Below, piece after piece: positions 13,996 to 14,745 of a DNA stretch of 64,000 bases. The DNA is from Octopus sinensis. Lineage: Eukaryota. The notes beneath the pieces were generated by a model. That model did not search any database and was not told where the DNA came from. It saw only the letters and a program-made list of their open reading frames with translations. Positions within the stretch are counted from its first letter, which is position 1. Each line of letters opens with the position of its first letter. The stretch lies in the NCBI RefSeq assembly GCF_006345805.1, contig NC_043000.1, positions 87,916,001 to 87,980,000 of the forward strand, written 5' to 3'. The position numbers and the translations under genes were made by a program.

Positions 13996-14399
13996 TGTGT
14001 GTGAATCTGACAAATGACGGAATTCCTGAGTCATGCGGAAACAGTGATTCAAATGTTCTGGGGAGACAAAGTCTTCTGCCACTTTGATACAACTGTGTAA
14101 ATTCCGTACCTGATGAGGTGCTCCTGCTGGAATGAACACAGCATCACCCAGACATTGTACAATGGTGTAACCATGTACACCATATTCTTTGTTAAGACGG
14201 TCCCGCAGATCAGCATCCAGATACCAGCTTTGATCGTGAATTGGATCATGATCAGGTTCTAGCAGCTGTCCATTTTCTTTCCCAACCTTATTTAGCAAGT
14301 CTCTAATTTTGTCAGCTTCTTCAGCACAATAAATATGCCACAGAGCGCCTGGGATTTCATTGACTTCTCTTACCCGTCTCTTGGTAATAATATCACAGT
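13996..14399 (-). pseudogene. KDM3: Processed KDM3/JMJD1 (JmjC H3K9 demethylase) fragment, inverted 5' segment
   Basis: Uninterrupted frame [23 protein letters not shown]...[11 protein letters not shown]...[32 protein letters not shown]...[11 protein letters not shown]; no introns. Confidence 0.93.
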
Positions 14400-14745
14400 A
14401 ACCATGAAGATAAACTTCAGGTCAAGAATATCATTTACCATGCTGTGAAAGATGCCATTGCTGTCCTCAGTGATAAACCTGTGGAATGAAATCCTCTTAA
14501 GTAGAGCTGTATACATCTTGCTACTTGTTTCTGGCTGGTTTTGTAAACAATGACCAAGACTGGCTGGACAGAAAAACTCTGATAAACCTGCCAGCCAGCC
14601 ATACCAAGTGACATCCCACCTACACTGCCAAAGTCACTCCTGGCACTTTTTTTTTTATCTGTTATTGCATTGTTATTAAAAGCCGTCTTTGTCCTTGTCA
14701 ATCCTGCTAACTCTACTACATCCTACTTTGTGTTGTCAACTTTGT
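14400..14745 (+). pseudogene. KDM3: Processed KDM3 fragment, non-inverted 3' segment (C-terminus plus 3' UTR)
   Basis: 14400-14489 encodes [33 protein letters not shown], the direct continuation of ...SHT; unique UTR-like sequence follows (ATTAAA 14675-14680) up to a (TG)n tract; right end approximate. Confidence 0.88.

What the first reader, a model, noticed from the sequence alone, without database searches (positions are those of the whole stretch)
13996..14745. 5'-inverted KDM3 retrocopy with no poly(A), apparently primed at both ends by a (TG)n microsatellite
Seen: the minus segment ends ...RHLSDSHT (CACACA) inside the flanking (TG)n. The plus segment starts at 14400 with the next expected residues [19 protein letters not shown], reaches a stop, continues as UTR, and ends in TGTGTG without an A-tail. 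SINE-like sequence resumes beyond it. The frame runs through K|V, HQ|V and LQ|V, where I recall KDM3 genes having introns. Established: this geometry is the twin-priming signature known mainly from mammalian L1. Inference: mRNA capture by an RTE-type RT or RNA-templated break repair using CA/TG microhomology. The absence of stops suggests a recent event.
Basis: partly seen in the sequence, partly recalled or inferred. Interest (0 to 1): 0.75.

Follow-up and report, generated by a model that had tools for sequence, protein, structure and literature searches.

The report
Front-flipped, tailless KDM3 retrocopy
A 745-base, intron-less piece of the KDM3 gene sits here with its front half flipped and no poly(A) tail; it was likely pasted in when a jumping-gene enzyme copied one messenger RNA from both cut DNA ends, a trick described mostly for mammalian L1, and the copy itself is likely dead.

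Summary
Real, and likely recent. The insert (13998-14742) is a spliced copy of the last four exons of a KDM3-type gene on another contig: three GT-AG introns are gone, and it differs from the parent by two substitutions and a 2-base deletion. The two arms are contiguous in the mRNA and meet at a 7-base microhomology. The left (TG)5 pairs 5/6 with the mRNA at the only such site in the copied stretch, which fits twin priming. The (TG)n is a pre-existing repeat tract; a 9-10-base target duplication is inferred. Public contigs carry the insertion in three samples and fit an empty site in two. Among six retroelement groups sampled, only RTE-like families showed 5' inversions (6 clear of 90 copies) and similar duplications, so an RTE-like enzyme is the likeliest donor (inferred). 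The scan had already noted twin priming in RTE-like and RLE elements elsewhere in this assembly. Flipped retrocopies are known from mammals; the tailless, likely non-L1, invertebrate form is a modest new variant.

The parts
13560..13670 (+). 5' half of the old dispersed repeat (SINE-like) whose internal TG tract took the insertion
   Evidence: Matches other copies at 70-82%; L007 and L011 show the same order of 5' half, TG tract, 3' half. The label SINE is recalled, not from a call.
13994..14003 (+). Left (TG)5: inferred left copy of the 9-10-base target duplication; its last six bases are the likely second primer
   Evidence: empty site AAG(TG)6CATG inferred from contig overhangs in runs X4 and X5.
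13998..14399 (-). Inverted arm: spliced KDM3 coding sequence (mRNA model 28-429), JmjC C-terminal part, two introns lost
   Evidence: one substitution at 14262 (Ile to Leu) and one mismatch at 14002 inside the primer pairing.
14393..14399 (.). 7-base microhomology TCACAGT shared by both arms at the inversion point
   Evidence: the only partner of 5 or more bases in the 424 bases upstream in the model.
14393..14742 (+). Forward arm: end of coding sequence, stop at 14487-14489, 253 bases of 3' UTR; one intron lost; ends inside the UTR without poly(A)
   Evidence: 2-base deletion in a T run.
14743..14754 (+). Right (TG)6: the pre-existing tract; no pairing with the mRNA beyond the break
14755..14890 (+). 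3' half of the dispersed repeat
15032..15158 (-). Exon of a focadhesin-like host gene; the insert lies in the intron after it
   Evidence: PF12530, E 7e-8, over the curated cut-off; AG and GT ends found.

Best explanation
This is a processed copy of the 3' end of the KDM3 mRNA, likely made by twin priming during target-primed reverse transcription, most likely by an RTE-like LINE enzyme. Shown: introns lost, two contiguous arms in opposite orientation, 7-base junction microhomology, 5/6 pairing of the left TG tract with the mRNA, no tail, 3' end inside the UTR. Inferred steps: (1) an endonuclease made a staggered cut 9-10 bases apart at the edge of a (TG)6 tract; (2) the bottom-strand end started copying at mRNA base 776 without base pairing, probably on the free end of a cut or partly degraded mRNA, or after an immediate jump off the element's own RNA; (3) the top-strand end ...TGTGTG annealed to CUCACA (424-429) and copied upstream; (4) the first cDNA ran into the second primer's site and stopped at 425; (5) the two cDNA ends annealed through ACTGTGA/TCACAGT and were filled in. 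The copy has no promoter, start or intact orientation and is likely inert.
For: Parent and lost introns. The primer site is the only one of its quality in 770 positions, and the junction partner the only one of 5 or more bases in 424; 0.4% per position by chance. The arms abut exactly in RNA-like contigs X13 and X8. Left junction and spliced joints are bridged in X1 and X7; 76-287-base contigs cross the inversion point in X1, X3 and X7. RTE-like families in the same genome make this structure: family B 4 clear plus 1 of 21 bases in 30 copies, family C 2 of 30. L118 has a 14-base duplication, a mispaired top-strand primer with the same T-for-A mismatch near its end, and a forward arm that overlaps the primer site. 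Duplication-like repeats of 7-18 bases, median 10.5, in 34 of 79 RTE-like copies whose 5' end was in view; 6 of 90 sit next to (TG)4 or longer. Active RTE-clade LINEs are reported in octopuses (10.1101/2021.01.24.427974, passages). Animal RTE 3' microhomology is only one or two bases (PMC6007223, passages).
Against: All 90 RTE-like copies keep their own tail, and non-L1 LINEs are described as needing their own 3' end (PMC3747384, PMC4476161, passages); this insert carries none, so the donor is not proven. RTE-like family A showed 0 of 30 inversions. The RTE label rests on recalled features plus Pfam RT/endonuclease hits, not on a tree with named references. The T-stretch 10 bases upstream that PMC6007223 describes is absent. 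The duplication is inferred from contig overhang lengths on another haplotype (13955 G>A) inside a slippage-prone repeat; the joined empty site was not printed. The inversion and right junction contigs have only 30 letters on one side, below the tool's 31-letter rule. The second primer has a mismatch one base from its 3' end. A 7-base microhomology is longer than in any of the 7 inverted RTE-like copies (0-3 bases).
Confidence: 0.58

Rival explanations
1. Twin priming, but by another enzyme in this genome: a Penelope-like protein, the tailless two-ORF zf-RVT (L1/Tx1-like) family, or the tailless RLE-type family.
For: A Penelope protein extends both strands and starts internally without homology (PMC11167929, parts 1-2 of 4). 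Intact Penelope-like frames are abundant, and a RAN-like retrocopy is fused to a Penelope-like end. The zf-RVT and RLE-type families end with no poly(A). One of 30 RLE-type copies abuts (TG)n and one abuts (CA)n.
Against: The Penelope-like family ended in AT/TA runs in 18 of 18 loci (2 of the 20 fetched loci belonged elsewhere), and its inverted arms duplicate the forward arm instead of continuing it (L023 and L033). zf-RVT family: 0 of 30 inverted with only 5 ends in view, 0 of 20 after extension, clear duplications 16-17 bases. RLE-type: 0 of 30 inverted, 17 ends in view. Only some families were sampled.
Confidence: 0.17
2. One cDNA, no second priming: the cDNA ran to mRNA base 28, folded back on the 7-base inverted repeat, copied its own 3' part, and the loop was cut at the stem base and joined to the target. 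This gives the same top strand.
For: Explains both the unusually long microhomology and the exact contiguity at 424/425. Self-annealing of DNA ends is proposed for some L1-linked inversions (10.1101/2024.12.14.628481, passages).
Against: Leaves the TG pairing at the left end to chance (0.4% per position, about 1% allowing offsets). A 7-base stem closing a 390-base loop is weak. The loop-cutting step is my inference, not from a call.
Confidence: 0.1
3. Endonuclease-independent repair: a break in the microsatellite was patched with cDNA made on a KDM3 mRNA fragment from both ends.
For: No poly(A), internal 3' end, no element tail. Endonuclease-independent L1 insertions are linked to break repair (PMC1920257, abstract).
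Against: That class is associated with target deletions (same abstract); here the inferred empty site shows no loss and a 9-10-base duplication. There is no microhomology at the 3' junction.
Confidence: 0.1
4. An ordinary 5'-truncated retrocopy later inverted in the DNA between the short inverted repeats.
For: The repeat contains TGTG, so a truncation at mRNA base 30 could have joined the TG tract by microhomology.
Against: Needs a truncation exactly at the repeat, a later inversion on 5-7 bases of homology and a further A-to-T change at 14002, in a copy about 0.3-0.5% diverged. No uninverted allele appeared in the 7 different runs laid, though contigs drop rare forms.
Confidence: 0.04
5. Assembly chimera or DNA-level duplication.
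For: X1 may be the assembly's own sample; no long read was available.
Against: The parent has the three introns. Junction contigs occur in X3 and X7, other samples under other organism labels.
Confidence: 0.01

Closest known systems
5'-inverted (twin-primed) processed pseudogenes made by human L1 (PMC12016303, passages: 3 of 23 inverted, 95.7% with poly(A); PMC2912911, part 1 of 5 and passages; Ostertag and Kazazian 2001 not held, seen only as cited)
   Same: Spliced mRNA copy; inverted 5' arm; microhomology at the 5' junction and at the inversion point; target duplication.
   Different: No poly(A), 3' end inside the UTR, no TTTT/A site, shorter inferred duplication, invertebrate host, likely non-L1 enzyme.
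Tailless retropseudogenes of tRNA and other small RNAs (as described in PMC2912911, passages)
   Same: 3'-truncated, no A tail, flanked by a duplication.
   Different: Template is an mRNA; no 3' microhomology here; combined with a 5' inversion.
RTE-clade LINE insertions (PMC6007223, part 1 of 6 and passages; octopus RTE-2_OV, 10.1101/2021.01.24.427974, passages)
   Same: Duplication starting with T; little 3' pairing; RTE-like copies in this genome share the duplication length, the occasional TG target and the inversions.
   Different: No RTE tail on the insert; no T stretch 10 bases upstream.
Penelope-like insertions (PMC8557442, passages; PMC11167929, parts 1-2 of 4)
   Same: Tailless, microsatellite target, both strands extended, internal start without homology.
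   Different: Arms continue each other rather than duplicating one end; TG rather than TA target; no element end attached.
Single 5'-inverted Nimb-2 insert in chicken cells (PMC4245944, passages)
   Same: Shows that inversion is not strictly limited to L1.
   Different: One experimental element copy, not an mRNA; that paper otherwise found inversions only with L1 in human cells.

Membership tests
Processed pseudogene (retrocopy) | Introns of the parent precisely absent | tested here: met
   3 of 3 introns in the copied span.
Processed pseudogene (retrocopy) | Lies away from the parent locus | tested here: met
   Copy on C4, parent on C14.
L1-type twin-primed retrocopy | Inverted 5' arm adjoining the forward arm in the RNA | tested here: met
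   28-429 inverted, 425-776 forward.
L1-type twin-primed retrocopy | Microhomology at the 5' junction and at the inversion point | tested here: met
   5 of 6 bases and 7 bases.
L1-type twin-primed retrocopy | Poly(A) tail priming the first strand | tested here: not met
   No tail; UTR continues.
L1-type twin-primed retrocopy | L1 endonuclease site (TTTT/A) | tested here: not met
   Inferred first nick at AAG|TGTG.
L1-type twin-primed retrocopy | Target-site duplication | tested here: inconclusive
   9-10 bases inferred from contig overhangs of 2 and 18 letters; letters not printed; repeat context.
RTE-mobilised sequence | Carries the 3' end or repeat tail of an RTE element | tested here: not met
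   Parent sequence runs to the last base before the TG tract; tails of three families seen.
RTE-mobilised sequence | Duplication length and 5' structures like local RTE-like copies | tested here: met
   Median 10.5 bases, inversions in 6 clear of 90; depends on the inferred duplication.
RTE-mobilised sequence | T at first duplicated base and T stretch about 10 bases upstream | tested here: inconclusive
   First base is T; upstream is alternating TA/TG, no T run.
RTE-mobilised sequence | Candidate donor families belong to the RTE clade by phylogeny | not testable with these tools
   No named references held; label rests on recalled features.
Penelope-type insertion | Inverted arm duplicates the element or RNA end; TA target in this genome | tested here: not met
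Endonuclease-independent insertion | No duplication, often target deletion | tested here: inconclusive
   Inferred empty site shows a duplication and no loss.

The most novel reading that the evidence does not exclude
RTE-type reverse transcriptases, held to copy only RNAs bearing their own tail, can start on the bare internal end of a host mRNA with no pairing and then twin-prime it. Twin priming would then be a general property of LINEs with 10-base staggered cuts, and invertebrate genomes would hold a class of tailless, flipped retrocopies that poly(A)-based pipelines miss.
Probability: 0.4. Interest if true: 0.62.

Novelty: new variant of a known kind. Interest (0 to 1): 0.42.

Why it matters
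The copy itself is probably inert. Its value is as a clean, young record of mechanism: it separates twin priming from poly(A) priming and from mammalian L1, and it points to RTE-like elements on the host's chromosome-scale contigs that flip their own 5' ends. It suggests that retrocopy searches requiring an A tail undercount gene copies in such genomes: none of the 4 processed copies I could tie to a parent has one. If the presence/absence difference between samples holds, it is also a population marker. It lies in a focadhesin-like intron, so that pre-mRNA would carry 350 bases antisense to KDM3; no effect was tested.

Tried and rejected
GU-rich priming of the 3' end: no leading match at the true offset and at most 2 leading bases over offsets -3 to +3. 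Natural poly(A) site at the break: nearest upstream signal (ATTAAA) is about 65 bases away and RNA-like contigs run on. RNA hairpin at the break: predicted, but 18.6% of 500 shuffles fold as well, so not used. (TG)n as an added tail: other copies of the repeat have the tract. RNA editing recorded in the copy: the difference at 14262 is A-to-C in the sense strand, not A-to-G. Absence of the insert in X4 and X5 and of inverted transcripts in X13 and X8: contigs without cover prove nothing, so only the overhang arithmetic is used. L1 ORF1 search PF02994 rang nowhere, controls included, and is uninformative. CR1-like family: no family inversion in the loci, but they were picked for an intact RT and are biased; duplications mostly unclear. 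Retrocopy survey by Pfam family: low yield; 17 of the 20 regions fetched were read, 3 were tied to a parent, and hits were not followed. A second zf-RVT family (L261) was not sampled. Literature: nine searches listed no paper on a 5'-inverted mRNA retrocopy in a mollusc or on twin priming in RTE; the library lacks most subscription papers and I read no supplements, which may hold such cases. PMC5389967 gave only a reference-list hit.

Full report
What is there. The window is AT-rich, repeat-dense animal DNA at G000:C4 in a 2.72-Gb assembly. Earlier notes of the scan call the host octopus-type; I did not test the taxon. A DNA search with 13900-14850 found the source on C14 in five pieces at 99-100% identity. 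Joining the parent's last four exons and aligning gave two arms: window 14399 to 13998 = model 28-429, and 14393-14742 = model 425-776. The three introns in that span (112, 105, 553 bases, GT..AG) are absent. The inverted arm encodes the end of a JmjC domain closest to human KDM3B. Differences from the parent are one coding substitution (14262), one mismatch at 14002 and a 2-base deletion in a T run. Run X1 shows two more in a junction contig (14470, 14534), one of which also occurs in a parent-type contig of X7. The event is likely recent.

The three junctions. Left: (TG)5 runs into the insert, and its last six bases pair 5 of 6 with CUCACA at mRNA 424-429, with the mismatch one base from the end. 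This is the only such site in 770 positions; shuffles give 0.4% per position. Middle: the arms share TCACAGT. No other partner of 5 or more bases exists in the 424 upstream bases, and 0.05% of simulated junctions reach 7. Leaving the primer aside, the arms are exactly contiguous, as RNA-like contigs X13 and X8 also show. Right: the copy stops at GTCAACTT and (TG)6 follows. The parent continues AATGGTTGC, with no pairing to the flank, and X13 and X8 continue that way for 208 and 228 bases. The TG tract is part of an older dispersed repeat.

Other samples. Seven different runs were laid, all as contigs. X1, possibly the assembly's own sample, and X7 bridge the left junction and spliced joints. 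X3 reaches 29-35 letters into the insert. X1, X3 and X7 have contigs across the inversion point and X1 one across the right junction, but with 30 letters on the short side, under the tool's 31-letter rule. X3 and X7 are one study. X4 and X5 show intron-containing parent contigs and a left-flank contig that runs 2 letters past 14003; X5 also has a right-flank contig starting 18 letters before 14743. With the usual 30-letter overlap (assumed word length 31) both numbers fit AAG(TG)6CATG, since 13976-13993 is 18 letters. That implies an empty allele and a 9-10-base duplication. It is an inference: the letters were not printed, the haplotype differs at 13955, and contigs cannot prove absence.

Which enzyme. 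I sampled retroelements in the genome. A young Penelope-like family ended in AT/TA runs in 18 of 18 loci. A CR1-like family ends in (ATT)n. An RLE-type family and a two-ORF zf-RVT family both end without poly(A) but showed 0 of 30 and 0 of 30 inversions (17 and 5 ends in view; 0 of 20 after extending the latter), and the latter's clear duplications are 16-17 bases. Three RTE-like families gave 0, 4 clear plus 1 tiny, and 2 inversions in 30 copies each (28, 28 and 23 ends in view). Six of those seven lie on chromosome-scale contigs. Duplication-like repeats had a median of 10.5 bases in 34 of 79 copies, by a crude search that can pick chance matches, and 6 of 90 abut (TG)4 or longer. Three inverted copies have arms that overlap by 1-20 bases; L118 mirrors the KDM3 copy in duplication, mispaired primer and overlap. 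The other four have gaps of 57-1057 bases. Against this, every RTE-like copy keeps its tail, and the clade names are recalled from structure, not from a tree. Samples are the best-scoring copies of a few families, not a census.

Other retrocopies. Three more processed copies were tied to a parent: UBE2Z-like, RAB21-like and RAN-like (gene names recalled). None has a poly(A) tail and none showed a 5' inversion in those alignments. The RAN-like copy joins a Penelope-like end through a short shared motif; the UBE2Z-like copy joins an unclassified repeat end; both lie in TA runs. The RAB21-like 3' end is A-rich and obscured by later repeats. Lacking a tail is therefore not special here; lacking any element end while being twin-primed is what sets this copy apart.

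Mechanism. Best reading (0.58): staggered cut at the TG tract, unpaired start on an internal mRNA end, second priming by the top strand, first cDNA stopping at that site, annealing of the two cDNA ends. Twin priming by any enzyme totals about 0.75. A fold-back of one cDNA gives the same sequence but leaves the TG pairing to chance (0.10). Break repair lacks the expected target loss (0.10).

Comparison and novelty. Inverted processed pseudogenes are known in humans, nearly all with poly(A) (PMC12016303, passages; PMC2912911). In cell assays inversion was seen with L1 in human cells and once with Nimb-2 (PMC4245944, passages). Tailless copies are described for small RNAs. My nine searches listed no invertebrate or RTE case, in a library that lacks most subscription papers; no supplements were read. 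Earlier notes of this scan report twin priming in RTE-like and RLE elements in this assembly, some assigned to a co-sequenced parasite; I did not check those loci, but found the same structure in other copies. The insert is a retrocopy and works like a twin-primed L1 product, but fails L1 membership (no poly(A), no L1 site). It is a new variant of a known kind, a single probably inert event with a testable mechanistic lead: interest 0.42.

Noticed in passing
window 15032-15158 (-): Exon of a focadhesin-like gene (PF12530); the retrocopy lies in its intron, so that pre-mRNA would carry the inverted arm in sense and the forward arm antisense to KDM3.
   Followed up: partly
L117, L118, L128, L131, L112, L141, L153: RTE-like copies with 5' inversions; five of seven lie in TA-rich repeats; L128 has a 34-base locally templated insert at the inversion point.
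   Followed up: partly
L296 and L266-L318 (e.g. G000:C4:77064893-77070000): Young two-ORF zf-RVT (L1/Tx1-like) family of about 5 kb that ends bluntly without poly(A), is often full length or tandem, has 16-17-base duplications, and hits the same target sequence in several loci.
   Followed up: partly
L224-L253: RLE-type LINE family with a blunt, tailless 3' end and mostly no clear duplication; one copy interrupts the RAN-like retrocopy.
   Followed up: partly
L179 (G000:C10:4890400-4892100): RAN-like processed copy fused to a Penelope-like 3' end, in a TA repeat.
   Followed up: partly
L172 (G000:C1:95141700-95142800): Young UBE2Z-like processed copy ending inside the UTR, joined to an unclassified repeat end, TA runs on both sides.
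   Followed up: partly
L168 (G000:C2:13993400-13994930): RAB21-like processed pseudogene followed by a direct repeat of about 120 bases of the parent's upstream sequence.
   Followed up: no
window 43925-45800 (-) and 57660-60700 (+): Two RTE-like LINE copies; the first belongs to a family about 99% identical across the genome, ends in ATG repeats and has a 12-base duplication.
   Followed up: partly
L072 (G000:C5:118666200-118667570), L171: Intronless open frames for a mitochondrial EF-Tu-like and a UBE2A-like protein, possible old retrogenes (names recalled).
   Followed up: no
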